From Candidatus Latescibacterota bacterium (GTDB lineage Bacteria > Latescibacterota > UBA2968), in NCBI GenBank assembly GCA_965116885.1, contig OZ220741.1, positions 2,850,551-2,914,550 on the forward strand: a stretch of 64,000 nucleotides of DNA, written 5' to 3'. The translations under genes and the position numbers were made by a program. Numbering within the stretch: the stretch's first letter is position 1; each line of letters opens with the position of its first letter. Below the pieces are notes generated by a model. The model was not told the DNA's origin. It did not search any database and worked only from the letters and a program-made list of their open reading frames with translations. This document shows positions 14,421 to 18,941 of this stretch, piece after piece.

Positions 14421-15548
14421 ATGCTGAGTTTACACGGTGAAAAAATTGTTCGAATTGAAAAAGTGATTATGAAATTTAAGCGTCCCCGCCTGATCGGGCG
14501 CAATGCGCGGATTGGCGTTCACGGAGATATGGTGACGGATCCCGTGGTTCGCATCCACACAAATAGTGGTGCTGTTGGCGTTGGGTGGTCGCGGTTGAGA
14601 CAGGAAGAAGCCGAATCATTGGTGGGCAAAAGCATTGGGGATGTGTTCCAGTTGCCGGGGGGATCAAACGAAGTTGGAACGGCGATTGATTTGCCTTTGT
14701 GGGATCTGGCGGCCAAATTATCGGATCAGCCGTTGTACAAACTTTTAGGTGCTCGGGGATCTCGGGCGGTCGAGTTGTACGATGGCTCGGTTTATATCGA
14801 CGATCTGGATGCTTCGGATGAGGAGGCTGTGGAGATATTCCGGGACGAAGTGAAGACCGGGCACGATTATGGGTATAAAAATTTTAAAATTAAAATTGGT
14901 CGCGGCGCGCGCTGGATGCCCGTTACAGAGGGTACGGATCGGGATGTGCTGGTTATTCACAGTGTTCGGGAAGCCGCTGGCGCAGATGCGAAGATACTCG
15001 TCGATGCGAATAATGGCACGACGCTCAATATTGCAAAAGATATTCTCGAGCGCTGTGAAGATGTGGGGATTTACTGGTTTGAAGAACCGTTTCCAGAAGA
15101 TAGGGCTTTTAACGAGGATTTTAAGCAGTTTATCGTTGAGAAAGGATACGATACGCTCGTCGCTGATGGGGAATCGGGTCCTCCGCCACCCAGCTATTTT
15201 GATATGGTCAAAAAGGGATGGATCGATGTGGTGCAACACGATTTTCGCGCTAAGGGTCTTACGTGGTGGCGCGAGACTGCCGCGATGATCGAACCGTGGG
15301 GAGGCCAATGTGCGCCTCATTGCTGGGGCAGCTTGATCGAGCGCTATGCCCACGCGCATTTTGCCGCTTCGGTCCCCCATTTTTCTCTTCAAGAAGCCGC
15401 TCCCGCAGATATGCCGGGCATTGTGCTGGATGGCTGGACGATGCAGGACGGATGTTTGATGGTGCCAGATACGCCGGGCACGGGGTTTGACCTCGAGGCA
15501 GATGTGATTGAAGAGGGCGTGAAGTGGGAAGATGGGTTCAGGGTGTAA
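14421..15548 (+). CDS. Enolase superfamily (mandelate racemase / muconate lactonizing) protein
   Basis: DLPLWDLAAK, KIKIG, VDAN, EEPF, DGE metal ligands, terminal PGTGFD. Confidence 0.88.
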   Translation: MLSLHGEKIVRIEKVIMKFKRPRLIGRNARIGVHGDMVTDPVVRIHTNSGAVGVGWSRLRQEEAESLVGKSIGDVFQLPGGSNEVGTAIDLPLWDLAAKLSDQPLYKLLGARGSRAVELYDGSVYIDDLDASDEEAVEIFRDEVKTGHDYGYKNFKIKIGRGARWMPVTEGTDRDVLVIHSVREAAGADAKILVDANNGTTLNIAKDILERCEDVGIYWFEEPFPEDRAFNEDFKQFIVEKGYDTLVADGESGPPPPSYFDMVKKGWIDVVQHDFRAKGLTWWRETAAMIEPWGGQCAPHCWGSLIERYAHAHFAASVPHFSLQEAAPADMPGIVLDGWTMQDGCLMVPDTPGTGFDLEADVIEEGVKWEDGFRV

Positions 15549-15561
15549 TGGAGATAATAAT

Positions 15562-16599
15562 ATGGATATGACATTTCCTGGCGCAGAATGGGAGACGAGA
15601 CCGCCCGGTGATCTCGGCTTTGACGCGGAGAAGCTCGCGCGGGTGCAGAGGTGGTTGCGCGAGGTGGCGGATGACAGGTCCTTTCAGGTGGGGATTGCGC
15701 GTTATGGGTATCTCACTGCAGAGTGGCGGCAAGGTGTTGCGGCTGATTCTTCGCACTCACAGGCGTCTGCCGCTAAGTCGTATTATTCGACGCTTCTGGG
15801 TATTATAGTGGCGAAGGGCAAGCTATCTTCGCCGGATGAAAGAGTCGTCGATTACTATCCTGAGATGATGGATGTGGGCGAGCAGGAGGGTCCAAAGCCC
15901 GGGCGGTATGCGTTTGAGAAAGATCGCGATATTACCTTTCGGCATTTGATATGCAATGTGTCGGGTTATATGAAGCCGGGGGAGAAACCGGGCGAGGTTT
16001 TTCACTATCAGACTTATGGGATGAATATTCTGACCCATGCAATGGCTAAAATTTATGGGTGTTACGATGCAGATGATCCCGAGGGTTTGCCGGGATGTGG
16101 GAAGGTGATCGAAGAAAAGTTACGCGATCCCATTGGCGGGACCTGGACGCATTCGCATTCCAATTTTGATCTGTGGCCCAGTGCGCGGTTAAATATCTTC
16201 GGGTATTACACGCAGGTGCATACCACATTGCGCGATCAACTGCGGGTGGGGCATTTGTGGGGCAATTACGGCAATTGGAATGGGGTTCAGGTTGCGCCGG
16301 AAAGTTATTTGCGCGAGGCAACGGTGACGAATGATTTTATTCTGGAAAACGAACCTGAAGAGAATTGGAAATACGGTCACGGATTCTGGTGCAATGATCG
16401 CGGGATGCAGTGGGCAGATGCACCGAGGGATTCTTTTGCCGCATCGGGCGCTGGTGCGAAGCATATATGGATGTGCCCGCGATTGGGTTTGGTCATTGCG
16501 CAAAATCCAGGTCTGTGGGATCAGTTCAGGGAAGAGCAGGATAAGGTCGGGAGCCAGAATGAGGTGATTGCGCGAGTTGTGAATGCGGTAAAGGAATAG
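15562..16599 (+). CDS. Serine hydrolase, beta-lactamase (AmpC-like) family
   Basis: SAAK (SxxK), ITFRHL, PGEVFHY, YGHGFW, ASGAG. Confidence 0.85.
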   Translation: MDMTFPGAEWETRPPGDLGFDAEKLARVQRWLREVADDRSFQVGIARYGYLTAEWRQGVAADSSHSQASAAKSYYSTLLGIIVAKGKLSSPDERVVDYYPEMMDVGEQEGPKPGRYAFEKDRDITFRHLICNVSGYMKPGEKPGEVFHYQTYGMNILTHAMAKIYGCYDADDPEGLPGCGKVIEEKLRDPIGGTWTHSHSNFDLWPSARLNIFGYYTQVHTTLRDQLRVGHLWGNYGNWNGVQVAPESYLREATVTNDFILENEPEENWKYGHGFWCNDRGMQWADAPRDSFAASGAGAKHIWMCPRLGLVIAQNPGLWDQFREEQDKVGSQNEVIARVVNAVKE

Positions 16600-16612
16600 G
16601 GAGGATATATAG

Positions 16613-17935
16613 ATGGATGCAAAAACCAAAAAATTGCAGGTGGATCAGGCTGTGAAATCGCAGTCGCGGCGGGCGTTTAAGCTGTCGCGGCGTATTCACG
16701 GCTGGGCAGAGCGGCCGTTTCGGGAATACGAGTCGTCGAAGGCGTTGGCGGCGTATTTGGAGGAGAACGGATTTCAAATTGAATTTCCGTGGAAAAATAT
16801 CCCGACGGCTTTTCGCGCTATATGGGGCACGGGCAAACCCTCTATTGGCATGTTGGGGGAGTACGACGCATTGCCCAATTGCGGTGCCGAGGAGGGCACC
16901 TGGGGCCACGGCTGAGGTCATAATCTTTTGGGCGTTGCCCCGGCCGCAGGTGCGGTTGCTGCAAAGACAGTATTGGAAAATTTGAAATCATCCGGCCAGA
17001 TTATTTATTACGGCTGTCCGGCCGAAGAGACGCTGGCGGGTAAGGTGTATATGGCCCGCGATGGCGCGTTTCGAGATCTGGATGCGGTGCTGGCATGGCA
17101 TCCGGGATCGGGTACAGGTGTTAGCAATTATGGCGGTTCGTCGCTGGATTCTCTGGTGTATGAGTTTTTTGGCAAGACGTCTCACGGCGCGAGTGCTCAC
17201 AATGGGCGCAGTGCATTGGACGGGGTGATGTTGATGGATGTTGCGGCGAATTATTTGCGCGAGCACGTTCCCGAAAATGTGCGTATCCACTGCGTGATTC
17301 GGGATGGCGGGGATGCGCCCAATGTGGTGCCGGCTTATGCGAAGGTGTGGTACTATGTGCGGGGGAAGGATCGCGAACAGGTGAATAAAGTACGCAAGCG
17401 ATTGACCAAATGCGCCAAAGGTGCGGCGATGGCCACGGAAACGACTATGAAATGGCATCGTATCACGGCTGTGTACCCGCGTTTGCCAAATGATGTGATG
17501 TGCGAAACTGTGCGTCAAAATCTCGAATTATTCGGTCCGCCGCGTGCTTCTAAAAAAGATAAGGAACGCGTAAAGGAATTGGGATACAAAGGTGAATTTG
17601 ACGGGAAGATCAAAAAGGGGAAGGGTTCACAGGGGCGCGGGTCTTCGGATGAAGATAATGTGTCATGGCTGGCACCGATGGGGCGGTTTCAGATGGTGTG
17701 TTATACAAAGGGCACGCCGGGTCATCACCGCGATACGACCGCACAGGCAGTAATGCCTTTTGCCGAGCGCGCGATTTTGCAAACGGCCAAGGTGTTTGCG
17801 GGGTCGGCTCTTGATCTGATTTTGGACAACAAGGTGTTGCAAGCAGCGCGTGCGGAATTTAAGAAGGGAACAAAGGAGTTTGAGTACGATCCGCTGATTC
17901 CGAAGCGCCAGAAGGTTCCCGTGGATCCTCCATAG
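16613..17935 (+). CDS. M20 amidohydrolase (AbgB-like), 440 aa read through an in-frame TGA at 16913-16915; probable selenoprotein (U101)
   Basis: ORFs 16613-16915 and 16928-17935 are in the same frame. Joined translation reads EYDALP...WGHG*GHNLLG (family consensus GHGCGHNLLG), with intact CPAEE, WHP, GRSALD, NVVP, GSSD..VSW and PGH motifs. Confidence 0.85.
16942..16957 (+). promoter_or_regulatory. Putative bacterial SECIS hairpin
   Basis: GGCCGC-AGGT-GCGGTT stem-loop; the loop begins 32 nt after the TGA and has G at loop position 2. Confidence 0.65.
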
Positions 17936-17948
17936 AAGGAGATGAGAT

Positions 17949-18941
17949 TTGAAAACACAAAGATTAATATGCACAGATGTCCGGCGGATTGAATTAGAGG
18001 ACGTTGATTTGCCGCGTGTGCCAGACAATGGCATTTTGGTGCAGAATGATTATACTGCCGTGAGTGTGGGTACGGAAATTTACAATTATGCACACGGGGG
18101 TGAACCGTCGCGTGCGAGGACATTTCCGCGGCCAACGGGATATTGCAATACGGGTGTGGTGCTCGAGGTGGGCAAAGATGTGAAGGGGATAGAACCCGGT
18201 GATCGCATTGCTGCGCAGGGCAATCACGCCAGTCATGCCGTTTTGAGCGGGAATTTTCTCAAGACTCCCGAAGGTGTTTCGCCCAGGTCCGCGGCTTTTA
18301 TGGTTATGTGTGCGATTGCCATGCACGGGCATCGGGTTGGACGTCCGGAGTTGGGCGAGGTTGTTGCAATTACCGGTATGGGTATTGTGGGCCAGTTAGC
18401 AGCGACCTTTGCGCGGTTGGCTGGCGCGCTTCCGGTTATTGCGATTGATCTGGATGATTTTCGGTTGGGTAAGGCGAGAGATCGGGGGGCAGATGTTTGT
18501 GTCAATCCCAGTACTACAGAGGATGTCGCCGAGGTGGTGCGCGAGCATTGCGTGGGCGATGGTGTCGATCTGGTTATTGAAGCAACGGGTATTCCAGCGG
18601 TTTATCCCATGGCGCTGACTTTACCCCGGTTGGGTGGCCGTCTGGTCGCGTTGGGGTCTCCGCGCGGTACCGTAGAAGTGAGTTTTTTGCCCGAGGTTCA
18701 CTTGCGCGAGATCACAATTCTGGGCGCACATCAGCCCAAGACGCCGGATAATGACCATATTTATTATCCGTGGAGCAAGCACAGAGATCGCGAGCTAATT
18801 TTGCGTTTGATGGCTGCGGGCAAGTTGCCCATCGAAGATTTGATTACCCATGTTGTCAATCCCGTCGATTGTCAGGCTACCTACGACATGCTCGCCGATA
18901 ATCCCAGAGAAGCGTTAGGCGTGGTATTTGAGTGGAGGTGA
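17949..18941 (+). CDS. Medium-chain dehydrogenase/reductase (zinc-binding alcohol dehydrogenase family)
   Basis: AVSVGTE, GMGIVGQ Rossmann motif, GVDLVIEATG, LITH; TTG start. Confidence 0.88.
   Translation: MKTQRLICTDVRRIELEDVDLPRVPDNGILVQNDYTAVSVGTEIYNYAHGGEPSRARTFPRPTGYCNTGVVLEVGKDVKGIEPGDRIAAQGNHASHAVLSGNFLKTPEGVSPRSAAFMVMCAIAMHGHRVGRPELGEVVAITGMGIVGQLAATFARLAGALPVIAIDLDDFRLGKARDRGADVCVNPSTTEDVAEVVREHCVGDGVDLVIEATGIPAVYPMALTLPRLGGRLVALGSPRGTVEVSFLPEVHLREITILGAHQPKTPDNDHIYYPWSKHRDRELILRLMAAGKLPIEDLITHVVNPVDCQATYDMLADNPREALGVVFEWR

What the first reader, a model, noticed from the sequence alone, without database searches (positions are those of the whole stretch)
16613..17935. Probable selenocysteine-containing M20 amidohydrolase, with Sec at the metal-ligand cysteine
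Seen: the two ORF-track pieces are one reading frame broken by a single TGA (16913-16915) in WGHG*GHNLLG. All other motifs on both sides (EYDAL, PAEE, WHP, GSSD..VSW, PGH) are intact and there is no frameshift. Established: AbgB/M20D amidohydrolases have GHGCGHN or HACGH, where this Cys ligates the dimetal centre; Sec is encoded by UGA and usually aligns with Cys in homologs. TGA ends gltB and smc in this window, so it is not globally reassigned. Inference: a 440 aa selenoenzyme using selenolate as a metal ligand in a hydrolase. That is unusual because most known selenoproteins are redox enzymes. Automated annotation would call it a pseudogene. I cannot verify whether the family has already been reported.
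Basis: partly seen in the sequence, partly recalled or inferred. Interest (0 to 1): 0.92.

Follow-up and report, generated by a model that had tools for sequence, protein, structure and literature searches.

The report
Selenocysteine-containing M20D amidohydrolase in Latescibacterota
The gene is not broken: its single in-frame TGA almost certainly encodes selenocysteine at the metal-binding cysteine position of a metal-dependent amide-cleaving enzyme, a use of selenium not found in a 2026 catalogue of bacterial selenoproteins.

Summary
One reading frame (16613-17935, +, 440 codons) carries a single TGA at 16913-16915 in GHG*GHN.

- The same codon is TGA in 55 of 62 orthologue-bearing genomes among 168 Latescibacterota genomes. 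The nearest TGA-free orthologue has TGC (Cys).
- 47 distinct TGA genes are otherwise intact, with dN/dS of about 0.1 on both sides of the TGA.
- The lowest synonymous variation of the whole gene lies 6-15 codons after the TGA. It covers two adjacent hairpins, and one of them meets the published bacterial SECIS criteria. Cys orthologues show no such constraint.
- The genome has selA, selB, a Sec-containing selD and tRNA-Sec, plus other known selenoprotein genes. TGA is also its commonest stop codon.
- The protein scores above the TIGR01891 cut-off. Its model (pLDDT 94.8) matches HmrA and human PM20D2. Sec aligns with the Cys of their HACGH motif, the position described as bridging two zinc ions in an M20D enzyme.

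A 2026 catalogue of 119 prokaryotic selenoprotein families lists no M20 peptidase or amidohydrolase.

Not shown: selenium in the protein, the selenium-metal bond, and the substrate.

The parts
16600..16604 (+). Shine-Dalgarno-like GGAGG, 8 nt before the start codon
   Evidence: Read directly.
16613..17935 (+). Complete coding sequence of the 440-residue M20D-type amidohydrolase (TGA read as Sec; stop is TAG 17933-17935)
   Evidence: TIGR01891 scores 194.5 bits against a cut-off of 153.75. PF07687 M20_dimer covers residues 183-271. The AlphaFold model has pLDDT 94.8. Foldseek gives TM 0.82/0.91 to HmrA 3RAM.
16913..16915 (+). UGA codon 101, read as selenocysteine. It aligns with the Cys of the GH[GA]CGH motif.
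   Evidence: TGA at this codon in 47 distinct genes and in 55 of 62 phylum genomes with an orthologue. TGC or TGT in all other homologues. Aligns with Cys of HmrA, PM20D2, ILL2 and 4EWT.
16916..16927 (+). Codons 102-105 (G-H-N-L), between the TGA and the TTG that gene callers take as a restart. They include His103 of the C/U-x-H motif.
   Evidence: Synonymous variation with conserved residues: codon entropies 1.55, 0.99, 1.00 and 1.72 bits, H103 and L105 invariant, G102 and N104 at least 90%. So these codons are translated in this frame. The TTG is CTG in many orthologues.
16930..16940 (+). Hairpin H1: GGGC-GUU-GCCC. The loop starts 18 nt after the UGA.
   Evidence: All 4 pairs are invariant in 42 distinct sequences. 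RNAalifold predicts it. Alone it folds at -5.4 kcal/mol. The loop is ACA in L081 and GUA in several sequences.
16941..16958 (+). Hairpin H2, the candidate SelB-binding SECIS core: CGGCCGC-AGGU-GCGGUUG. 7 bp stem, 4-nt loop starting 32 nt after the UGA.
   Evidence: -10.1 kcal/mol alone. 99.7% of cells paired; one pair occurs as G-C 32, G-U 6, A-U 3, other 1; another as C-G 26, U-G 16. Meets the published bSECIS model limits. The apical part resembles the selD hairpin of the same genome, AGC-GGU-GCU.
16931..16960 (+). Codons 107-116: the 10-codon window with the lowest synonymous variation in the whole gene
   Evidence: 0.315 bits against a gene mean of 1.144 in 47 Sec genes. The same window gives 1.43 bits in 24 Cys orthologues, whose mean is 1.166.
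17024..17029 (+). Glu138-Glu139 (PAEE), taken as general base plus metal ligand of M20 enzymes
   Evidence: Invariant in 50 homologues. Aligned with PAEE of HmrA and PM20D2. The roles are inferred from recalled family knowledge.
17099..17101 (+). His163 (WHP), putative metal ligand
   Evidence: Invariant and aligned with HP of HmrA and PM20D2. Role inferred.
17723..17725 (+). His371 (PGHH), putative metal ligand
   Evidence: Invariant and aligned with GH of HmrA and PM20D2 in the second matched stretch. Role inferred.

Best explanation
The gene at 16613-17935 encodes one functional 440-residue M20D-family metal-dependent amidohydrolase or dipeptidase. Its codon 101, UGA, is decoded as selenocysteine by the organism's SelA/SelB/SelD/tRNA-Sec system. 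Decoding is directed by a twin-hairpin element 15-43 nt downstream (16930-16958). Hairpin H2, a 7-bp stem with loop AGGU, is the likely SelB-binding part. Sec takes the place of the Cys of the GH(G/A)CGH motif. In M20D enzymes that Cys ligates, and is described as bridging, the two catalytic metal ions, so the enzyme would use a selenolate instead of a thiolate at a hydrolytic, non-redox dimetal centre. Shown here: conservation of the UGA, Cys in homologues, purifying selection on both sides, an overlapping constrained RNA element, presence of the Sec machinery, and the family and fold. Inferred: actual Sec insertion, Se-metal ligation, and the benefit (for example resistance of the ligand to irreversible oxidation, or altered metal preference). 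The substrate is unknown; an N-acyl amino acid or a dipeptide is most likely by family.
For: (1) Recurrence. Among 61 relatives, 52 have an orthologue at E<=1e-30, and 49 of those carry exactly one TGA inside it, at 100% down to 70% identity. Over the phylum (168 genomes), 62 have a match at E<=1e-100 and 55 carry one TGA: families f1 31 (including the window's genome), f2 18, f3 6. The TGA sits at the same codon in all 38 loci inspected.
(2) Cys in homologues. The 68% orthologue has TGC. Of 80 named genome loci, 30 have TGA, 38 TGC and 12 TGT (one locus's first motif hit was spurious).
(3) Integrity. 47 distinct TGA genes of 438-441 codons have no other stop. dN/dS is 0.108 for codons 1-100 and 0.081 for codons 117-440, from the 280 of 1081 pairs with usable dS.
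(4) RNA element. The lowest synonymous-codon entropy of the whole gene is at codons 107-116 (0.315 against a mean of 1.144), while Cys orthologues give 1.43 there. RNAalifold finds two adjacent hairpins. 99.8% of 462 cells are paired and there is one compensatory pair. H2 has a 4-nt loop with G in second position, a 7-bp stem, 32-nt spacing and -10.1 kcal/mol, all within the bSECIS model quoted in PMC13188914 section 5.
(5) Machinery. selA 580.5 bits, adjacent selB 384.7 bits, selD 369.1 bits with its own TGA, and tRNA-Sec 70.1 bits with anticodon TCA. selA was found in 57 of 61 relatives, and in neither genome of the genus that holds the Cys orthologue.
(6) Other selenoprotein genes in the same genome have a hairpin 18-21 nt after their TGA: MoeB (515.8 bits against cut-off 449), UGSC family (157.8 against 125) and two UxxC thioredoxin-fold proteins.
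(7) TGA is a normal stop: it ends 729 of 1832 long open frames.
(8) Family and site. TIGR01891 is above its cut-off. The model has pLDDT 94.8. Best folds are HmrA, PM20D2 and CsAga. Sec aligns with Cys of the HACGH motif. [quoted passage not shown]
(9) One Cys-to-Sec change explains the genome set: the 47 Sec rows form one clade with SH-aLRT 99, nested among Cys forms.
Against: No direct evidence that selenium is in the protein. Covariation in the hairpins is slight because the stems are almost invariant: 1 of 11 pairs shows a compensatory change, and 11 of 500 shuffles reach the observed score. The fold energy of the window's own 81-nt stretch is not unusual (z = 0.44). H2's loop lies 32 nt after the UGA, whereas five other selenoprotein genes of this genome have theirs at 18-21 nt. 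H1 sits at 18 nt but has only 4 bp, -5.4 kcal/mol, and loses its loop G in L081, so which hairpin binds SelB is unresolved. No Rfam family matches. One genome with the TGA form (G012, 91% complete, 430 contigs) gave no selA match. Full-length proteins with Cys at 71-82% identity (P0002, P0003, P0004, P0014, P0015) fall inside the Sec clade in a FastTree of 148 rows, so Sec is dispensable in close relatives. The metal-ligand role of the Cys in the nearest structures (HmrA, PM20D2) comes from recall plus one review sentence on CsAga; the HmrA paper is not held.
Confidence: 0.88

Rival explanations
1. Simple nonsense mutation, pseudogene or assembly error: the TGA ends translation and the downstream part is decaying or mis-assembled.
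For: Table 11 splits the frame. Public gene calls hold many 320-336-aa C-terminal fragments, for example P0010 with 217 member sequences.
Against: The same TGA is present in 47 distinct, otherwise intact genes and in 55 genomes of three families. dN/dS downstream is 0.081. Contigs of other runs span the site (X3 record 11, X9 record 17, X17 record 10), and no difference at 16913-16915 appears among the 40 rows shown, with 92 rows not shown.
Confidence: 0.01
2. The UGA is read through, but not as Sec: near-cognate or suppressor decoding gives Trp, Cys, Arg or Gly, and the downstream structure merely stimulates read-through.
For: Nothing run here tells the inserted residue. The hairpins show little covariation and H2's spacing is atypical for this genome.
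Against: The site is Cys in every TGA-free homologue, the usual Sec/Cys pattern. A full Sec machinery and other known selenoprotein genes are present. The one Cys orthologue among relatives lies in a genus where selA was not found in either of 2 genomes. H2 carries a GGU-type loop like selD's hairpin. TGA is the commonest stop, so no general suppression.
Confidence: 0.05
3. Split enzyme: two polypeptides, a 100-aa N-terminal piece ending at TGA and a 335-aa piece restarting at TTG 16928, that assemble.
For: Gene callers predict the 335-aa ORF.
Against: Codons 102-105 between the TGA and the TTG keep their residues under synonymous change, and they include invariant His103 of the C-x-H motif. 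These codons would be untranslated in a split gene. The TTG is CTG in many orthologues, and no ribosome-binding site precedes it. The Cys101 position would be lost altogether.
Confidence: 0.02
4. Sec is inserted but plays no metal-ligand role. It could be a redox switch that inactivates the enzyme on oxidation, or the subfamily could use another ligand set.
For: The ligand role was not measured here and the model has no metals.
Against: Sec aligns with the Cys of the conserved HxCGH motif in five solved M20D-type structures. The partner residues H103, E138-E139, H163 and H371 are invariant in 50 homologues. The review describes the Cys as bridging the two zincs in CsAga.
Confidence: 0.08

Closest known systems
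HmrA of Staphylococcus aureus (PDB 3RAM), MEROPS M20D
   Same: Best sequence and fold match: phmmer 3.8e-41, profile 9.5e-62, Foldseek TM 0.82/0.91 and rmsd 2.2 A. Same two-domain build with an M20 dimerisation domain. The GHxCGHN, PAEE and HP motifs align.
   Different: HmrA has Cys (GHACGHN) where this protein has UGA/Sec. Identity is only about 26%. This protein has an extra insert of about 7 residues (NCGAEEGTW) before the motif and a longer C-terminal part.
Human PM20D2, cytosolic beta-alanyl-lysine dipeptidase (PDB 7YH4, 8XZC, 8ZEL)
   Same: Second-best match in sequence (7e-37) and fold (TM 0.79-0.80/0.86-0.87). The Cys of GHACGHN aligns with Sec.
   Different: Eukaryotic, with Cys rather than Sec. 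26-28% identity. Its substrate cannot be transferred at this distance.
CsAga, N-alpha-acyl-glutamine aminoacylase of Corynebacterium (PDB 6SLF), M20D
   Same: Same fold (Foldseek 1.9e-23) and a profile match at 1.9e-10. It is the M20D enzyme for which the review states that a cysteine bridges the two zinc ions.
   Different: About 20% identity and Cys rather than Sec. Its residue-level alignment to this protein was not printed in my calls.
Known selenoproteins with Sec as a metal ligand: formate dehydrogenase (Mo/W) and [NiFeSe] hydrogenases (Ni)
   Same: Sec replaces a Cys that binds a catalytic metal (PMC13188914 section 7).
   Different: Those are redox enzymes, where selenium is discussed in terms of oxidation states. 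Here the metal centre activates water for amide hydrolysis, and no redox step is expected.
AbgB, p-aminobenzoyl-glutamate hydrolase subunit B (the name JGI gives to homologues)
   Same: Same broad M20D/TIGR01891 superfamily. JGI labels several homologues 'aminobenzoyl-glutamate utilization protein B'.
   Different: Only the general TIGR01891 model is above its cut-off. The Klebsiella AbgB-type structure 3IO1 is a distant match: TM 0.59/0.65, profile 3.7e-08. No abgA or abgT-like neighbour was seen.

Membership tests
Bacterial selenoprotein (SelB/SECIS-dependent UGA decoding) | In-frame UGA conserved at the same codon among orthologues | tested here: met
   49 of 52 orthologue-bearing relatives; 55 of 62 in the phylum set; same codon in 38 of 38 loci inspected.
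Bacterial selenoprotein (SelB/SECIS-dependent UGA decoding) | Cys (or Sec) at the aligned position in homologues | tested here: met
   TGC or TGT in all 50 TGA-free loci and at 56 of 80 motif sites. 98 of 120 database hits (P0002-P0121) match the motif pattern and show C there; the other 22 are C-terminal fragments or did not match my pattern.
Bacterial selenoprotein (SelB/SECIS-dependent UGA decoding) | bSECIS stem-loop after the UGA: loop 3-9 nt with G in its first two positions, stem 4-16 bp, 16-37 nt spacing, MFE <= -7.5 kcal/mol (model quoted in PMC13188914) | tested here: met
   H2 has loop AGGU, a 7-bp stem, 32-nt spacing and -10.1 kcal/mol. Codon-level constraint is specific to Sec genes. 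Covariation is weak. SelB binding was not tested.
Bacterial selenoprotein (SelB/SECIS-dependent UGA decoding) | selA, selB, selD and tRNA-Sec in the genome | tested here: met
   all above the curated cut-offs; anticodon TCA.
Bacterial selenoprotein (SelB/SECIS-dependent UGA decoding) | Purifying selection downstream of the UGA | tested here: met
   dN/dS 0.081 for codons 117-440.
Bacterial selenoprotein (SelB/SECIS-dependent UGA decoding) | Selenium physically present in the polypeptide | not testable with these tools
   Needs 75Se labelling or mass spectrometry.
M20D / TIGR01891 amidohydrolase (aminoacylase, dipeptidase) | Score above the curated family cut-off | tested here: met
   TIGR01891 scores 194.5 bits against 153.75. 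Pfam reports only M20_dimer for this sequence, though PF01546 is precomputed for many homologues.
M20D / TIGR01891 amidohydrolase (aminoacylase, dipeptidase) | Two-domain M20 fold (catalytic plus dimerisation/lid domain) | tested here: met
   Model pLDDT 94.8, pTM 0.92. Foldseek top hits are HmrA, PM20D2, CsAga, 4EWT, YxeP and ILL2.
M20D / TIGR01891 amidohydrolase (aminoacylase, dipeptidase) | Metal-ligand set Cys-x-His, Glu-Glu, His, His (list recalled from memory; the Cys bridge is taken from PMC11511702) | tested here: inconclusive
   C/U101, H103, E138, E139, H163 and H371 are invariant in 50 homologues and align with the motifs of solved M20D structures. No metal-bound model or coordinates were available to measure geometry.
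M20D / TIGR01891 amidohydrolase (aminoacylase, dipeptidase) | Metal-dependent amide hydrolysis | not testable with these tools
   Needs an enzyme assay.
AbgB (p-aminobenzoyl-glutamate hydrolase subunit B) | Specific family match and abgA/abgT partners nearby | tested here: not met
   No specific model is above its cut-off. The neighbours are an enolase-superfamily protein, a beta-lactamase-fold protein, a Zn-dehydrogenase and an esterase.

The most novel reading that the evidence does not exclude
This would be the first selenoprotein family among metallopeptidases and amidohydrolases (MEROPS M20D). A genetically encoded selenolate would replace the thiolate that bridges a dinuclear metal centre doing plain hydrolysis, with no redox chemistry. 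The family arose once from a Cys ancestor in a marine and sponge-associated class of Latescibacterota. It has been kept for a long time (orthologues down to 70% identity) and has reverted to Cys in some lineages. Selenium would then be used to tune a Lewis-acid metal site, through its oxidation resistance or its metal preference, rather than to carry out redox catalysis.
Probability: 0.55. Interest if true: 0.78.

Novelty: new variant of a known kind. Interest (0 to 1): 0.7.

Why it matters
Nearly all known selenoproteins are redox enzymes, thiol-oxidoreductase-like proteins or metal-detoxification proteins. A Sec that serves as a ligand of a hydrolytic dimetal centre would widen what selenium is known to do in enzymes. 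It comes with natural Sec/Cys pairs at 70-82% identity that could be compared directly for activity, metal preference and oxidation tolerance.

It also matters for annotation. Public gene calls split this gene into fragments (clusters of 320-336 aa, one with 217 members, one named 'peptidase dimerization domain-containing protein'). A well-conserved enzyme of an uncultured, sponge-associated phylum is therefore counted as truncated.

The 2026 catalogue of 119 prokaryotic selenoprotein families (PMC13188914, Table 1, read) contains no peptidase, amidohydrolase or M20 entry, so the family would add to that list. The twin-hairpin element, with its loop 32 nt from the UGA, is also a useful test case for SECIS prediction.

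Tried and rejected
Single-sequence fold of 16905-16985: energy not different from shuffles (z = 0.44), so it is uninformative alone.

Rfam: no family at gathering score in the window, and only chance-level hits at E<=10 around the site.

Structure prediction without an alignment failed (pLDDT 32.7). I repeated it with 50 homologues.

My recollection that Sapep (S. aureus) has a Cys metal ligand was wrong. Its ligands are His, Asp and Glu (PMC2937973, passages seen), so I dropped it. PMC12017989 (OngB) and PMC13081988 turned out to concern other hydrolase superfamilies (passages) and say nothing about M20D. PMC5658510 (passages) mentions selenoproteins and M20 separately and is not relevant.

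Gene neighbourhood as a clue to the substrate: the enolase-superfamily and beta-lactamase-fold genes upstream are kept only within the genus. The Zn-dehydrogenase downstream persists somewhat further (down to 52-80% identity in a few loci). Nothing is shared with the Cys orthologues of other phyla. NCBIfam gives the neighbours no match above cut-off except RraA. I therefore name no substrate.

My hairpin-plus-ORF scan of the genome returned 70 candidates, most of them evidently chance. I used only those with a family match. selD was missed by that scan because its upstream open stretch is under 40 codons, and I found it separately.

Read laying: all four runs are contigs, so they cannot show expression level, strand or transcript ends. 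X16 has no contig over 16862-16997, and I draw nothing from that gap.

Rows dropped: L062, L063 (38% hits), L133 and L138 gave no gene with my motif and length filter and are left out. The tree used 76 of 95 distinct genes (the closer clade plus 5 outgroup rows). The SECIS-encoded residues were not removed from the tree columns. The tree is FastTree only. Whether the 'C' in P0002-P0004, P0014 and P0015 is a true Cys was checked only indirectly: P0018 matches the TGC locus L165 at 99.8%.

Literature searches for prior reports found none. The main texts of deep-Sep (PMC12013277) and BSepDB (PMC13326102) contain none of the words amidohydrolase, peptidase, M20, hydrolase, aminoacylase or dipeptidase at word starts. 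The review PMC13188914 contains none of peptidase, acylase, hydrolase, amidase, AbgB or TIGR01891 anywhere. Supplementary tables of these papers are closed and could list such a candidate. Subscription journals are not covered.
Full report
OBSERVATION. The window holds one reading frame from ATG 16613 to TAG 17933-17935. A GGAGG lies 8 nt upstream. The frame is interrupted once, by TGA at 16913-16915, in W-G-H-G-*-G-H-N-L-L-G. Table 11 splits it into a 100-aa and a 335-aa ORF. Read through, the 440-residue product scores 194.5 bits on NCBIfam TIGR01891 'amidohydrolase' (cut-off 153.75) and carries an M20 dimerisation domain.

IS THE TGA AN ACCIDENT? No.
- Among 61 related genomes, 52 have an orthologue at E<=1e-30, and 49 of those carry exactly one TGA inside it. 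Identity runs from 100% down to 70% across two GTDB families.
- Over the 168 genomes held for the phylum, 62 have a match at E<=1e-100. Of these, 55 carry one TGA (three families of one class) and 7 carry none: one at 68% identity and six at 43-47%.
- In all 38 TGA-bearing loci I inspected, the TGA is at the same codon. The 68% orthologue has TGC there.
- Named genome records gave 30 TGA, 38 TGC and 12 TGT among 80 loci. Metagenome contigs gave 24 TGA, 54 TGC and 2 TGT among 80 motif sites. Titles of the near-identical records place the organism in Candidatus Latescibacterota.
- After removing duplicates, 47 distinct TGA genes remain. Each has 438-441 codons and no other stop.
- Nei-Gojobori dN/dS is 0.108 for codons 1-100 and 0.081 for codons 117-440, from the 280 of 1081 pairs with usable dS.
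- Codons 102-105, which lie between the TGA and the TTG that gene callers use as a restart, keep G-H-N-L while their third positions vary. The TTG itself is CTG in many orthologues.

Together these results exclude a pseudogene, an assembly error and a split gene.

IS TGA REASSIGNED? No. TGA ends 729 of 1832 stop-to-stop frames of at least 400 codons in this genome, more than TAA (677) or TAG (426). It also ends smc in the window.

SEC MACHINERY. The 5.56-Mb genome has:
- selA (580.5 bits) next to selB (384.7 bits);
- selD (369.1 bits) with its own in-frame TGA;
- directly beside selD, a tRNA-Sec (Rfam 70.1 bits; ARAGORN tRNA-SeC, anticodon TCA).

selA was found in 57 of 61 relatives. The four genomes without it are G012 (TGA form, 91% complete, 430 contigs), G050 (80% complete, no orthologue found), and G055 and G059, the two genomes of the genus that holds the only Cys orthologue among relatives.

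The genome also encodes other selenoprotein candidates of known families, each with a hairpin 18-21 nt after its TGA:
- MoeB (NF006444, 515.8 bits against 449);
- a UGSC-family (seleno)protein (NF041046, 157.8 against 125);
- two secreted thioredoxin-fold UxxC proteins with choice-of-anchor-D repeats.

RNA ELEMENT AFTER THE UGA. In the 47 Sec genes, the mean synonymous-codon entropy is 1.144 bits. The lowest 10-codon window of the entire gene is codons 107-116, at 0.315 bits. In 24 Cys orthologues the same window has 1.43 bits against a mean of 1.166. So the constraint acts on the nucleotides and is tied to the TGA.

RNAalifold, both in my script and in the tool, folds this stretch into two abutting hairpins:
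- H1: GGGC-GUU-GCCC, at 16930-16940.
- H2: CGGCCGC-AGGU-GCGGUUG, at 16941-16958.

On 42 distinct sequences, 99.8% of 462 cells pair. The stems are nearly invariant. One pair shows G-C 32, G-U 6, A-U 3, other 1, and another shows C-G 26, U-G 16. Covariation support is therefore thin, and the argument rests mainly on the synonymous-site trough.

H2 alone folds at -10.1 kcal/mol and H1 at -5.4. H2 has a 4-nt loop with G second, a 7-bp stem and 32 nt between UGA and loop. That satisfies the bacterial SECIS model quoted in the 2026 review: loop 3-9 nt, stem 4-16 bp, G in the first two loop positions, spacing 16-37 nt, MFE <= -7.5. Its apex (CGC-AGGU-GCG) resembles that of this genome's selD hairpin (AGC-GGU-GCU, loop 20 nt after UGA).

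An open point remains. The other selenoprotein genes here place their loop at 18-21 nt, which is where H1's loop lies. But H1 is short, and its loop G is lost in L081. I take H2 as the SelB-binding part and H1 as an accessory or spacer helix. This is inference.

WHAT THE PROTEIN IS. With an alignment of 50 homologues, the AlphaFold model reaches pLDDT 94.8 and pTM 0.92. The single-sequence attempt failed.

Foldseek's best matches:
- HmrA of S. aureus (3RAM; TM 0.82/0.91, rmsd 2.2 A);
- human PM20D2 beta-alanyl-lysine dipeptidase (7YH4, 8ZEL);
- the Corynebacterium N-acyl-glutamine aminoacylase CsAga (6SLF);
- 4EWT, YxeP and ILL2.

All of these are M20D-type enzymes. Sequence and profile alignments put Sec101 on the Cys of GHACGHN/HACGH in HmrA, PM20D2, ILL2 and 4EWT. 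C/U101, H103, E138, E139, H163 and H371 are invariant among 50 homologues.

[quoted passage not shown] That the same holds for HmrA and PM20D2 is my recollection, and the HmrA paper is not held. So Sec most likely supplies the ligand that bridges or binds the catalytic metals. This is an inference from alignment, not a measurement.

The substrate is unknown. The neighbours are an enolase-superfamily protein, a beta-lactamase-fold protein, a Zn-dehydrogenase and an esterase. They are conserved only among close relatives and have no specific family assignment.

EVOLUTION. In an IQ-TREE of 76 genome-derived rows, the 47 Sec rows form one clade (SH-aLRT 99). It is nested among Cys forms from another Latescibacterota lineage, from Chthoniobacterales and from Planctomycetota. 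One Cys-to-Sec change suffices.

Adding database proteins (FastTree, 148 rows) places five full-length Cys proteins (P0002, P0003, P0004, P0014, P0015; 71-82% identical to the query) inside the Sec clade. The minimum then rises to 4 changes, at least 3 of them forced by well-supported branches. This suggests reversions to Cys. That the database 'C' means a true Cys was verified only for P0018, which matches the TGC locus L165 at 99.8%.

OTHER SAMPLES. Runs labelled sponge or coral metagenome or metatranscriptome hold the stretch. Contigs spanning the TGA were laid from one DNA-type run (X3 record 11, 28 differences over 1479 nt) and from two RNA libraries (X9 record 17; X17 record 10). No difference at 16913-16915 appears among the 40 difference rows shown, and 92 more rows were not shown. 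Contigs show presence only, not expression.

PRIOR KNOWLEDGE. [quoted passage not shown] Its Table 1 lists 119 families and subfamilies. None is a peptidase, amidohydrolase, aminoacylase or M20 protein, and the text contains none of these words. It does list Sec as a metal ligand in FdhA and [NiFeSe] hydrogenases. It also lists hydrolase-related entries, such as UshA-like proteins and a glutamine-amidotransferase-like protein, so Sec outside classical redox folds is not unheard of.

The main texts of deep-Sep and BSepDB lack the relevant words. Four full-text searches found no report. Public gene calls treat the gene as a 320-336-aa fragment.

VERDICT. This is a genuine, conserved, selected UGA that is very probably decoded as selenocysteine (0.88). 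It sits at the metal-binding Cys position of an M20D amidohydrolase in marine and sponge-associated Latescibacterota. It is a new variant of two known things, selenoproteins and M20D hydrolases, and it was not found in the catalogue or the searches available to me. Selenium incorporation, the Se-metal bond, the benefit of Sec over Cys, and the substrate all remain to be shown.

Noticed in passing
G000:C1:607506-608627 (outside the window; loci L014, L017, L231): selD is itself a selenoprotein gene (in-frame TGA in ..SCGG*ASKLD..). A 7-bp hairpin with loop GGU follows 20 nt after the UGA, and the tRNA-Sec gene (anticodon TCA) lies about 100 nt downstream on the same strand.
   Followed up: partly
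G000:C1:546344-547522 (+), 1502450-1502959 (-), 462856-465183 (-), 225744-227054 (+) (loci L227-L230): Further in-frame-TGA genes of known selenoprotein families: a rhodanese-MoeB fusion (..APS*DEAGVLG..), a UGSC-family protein, and two secreted thioredoxin-fold UxxC proteins followed by choice-of-anchor-D repeats and a dockerin-like tail. The lineage appears rich in selenoproteins.
   Followed up: partly
G000:C1 near 544258, 2081071, 2547246, 2603556: The same GC-rich palindrome (GTGTAGGGGCGGTGCCCCTGTGC or close to it) turned up at four or more places in my hairpin scan. It looks like a dispersed REP-like repeat.
   Followed up: no
L169 (metagenome contig, TGC form, 68% identity): A Cys orthologue just outside the Sec clade still has H1 (GGGC-GUG-GCCC) and a weakened H2-like hairpin. 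Other Cys forms with the same peptide (L165) do not. This is either a relic of lost Sec or a pre-existing hairpin that eased the gain of Sec.
   Followed up: no
L089-L091, L094 (named genome records) versus G029 and related handles: Some MAG records titled Gemmatimonadetes or Planctomycetota carry the Sec form and sit inside the Latescibacterota clade. The record titles therefore look like taxonomic mislabels.
   Followed up: no
window 14421-18941: Four tightly packed same-strand genes (overlap, or 13-nt gaps): an enolase-superfamily protein (weak acid-sugar dehydratase hits), a beta-lactamase-fold protein with no NCBIfam match, the Sec amidohydrolase, and a Zn-dependent dehydrogenase. This order is kept only within the genus.
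   Followed up: partly
G000:C1:3176934-3177872 (-) and 2490890-2491837 (-) (loci L026, L027): Two distant M20-type paralogues (28% and 26% identity) with no internal stop. Only this one copy uses TGA.
   Followed up: no
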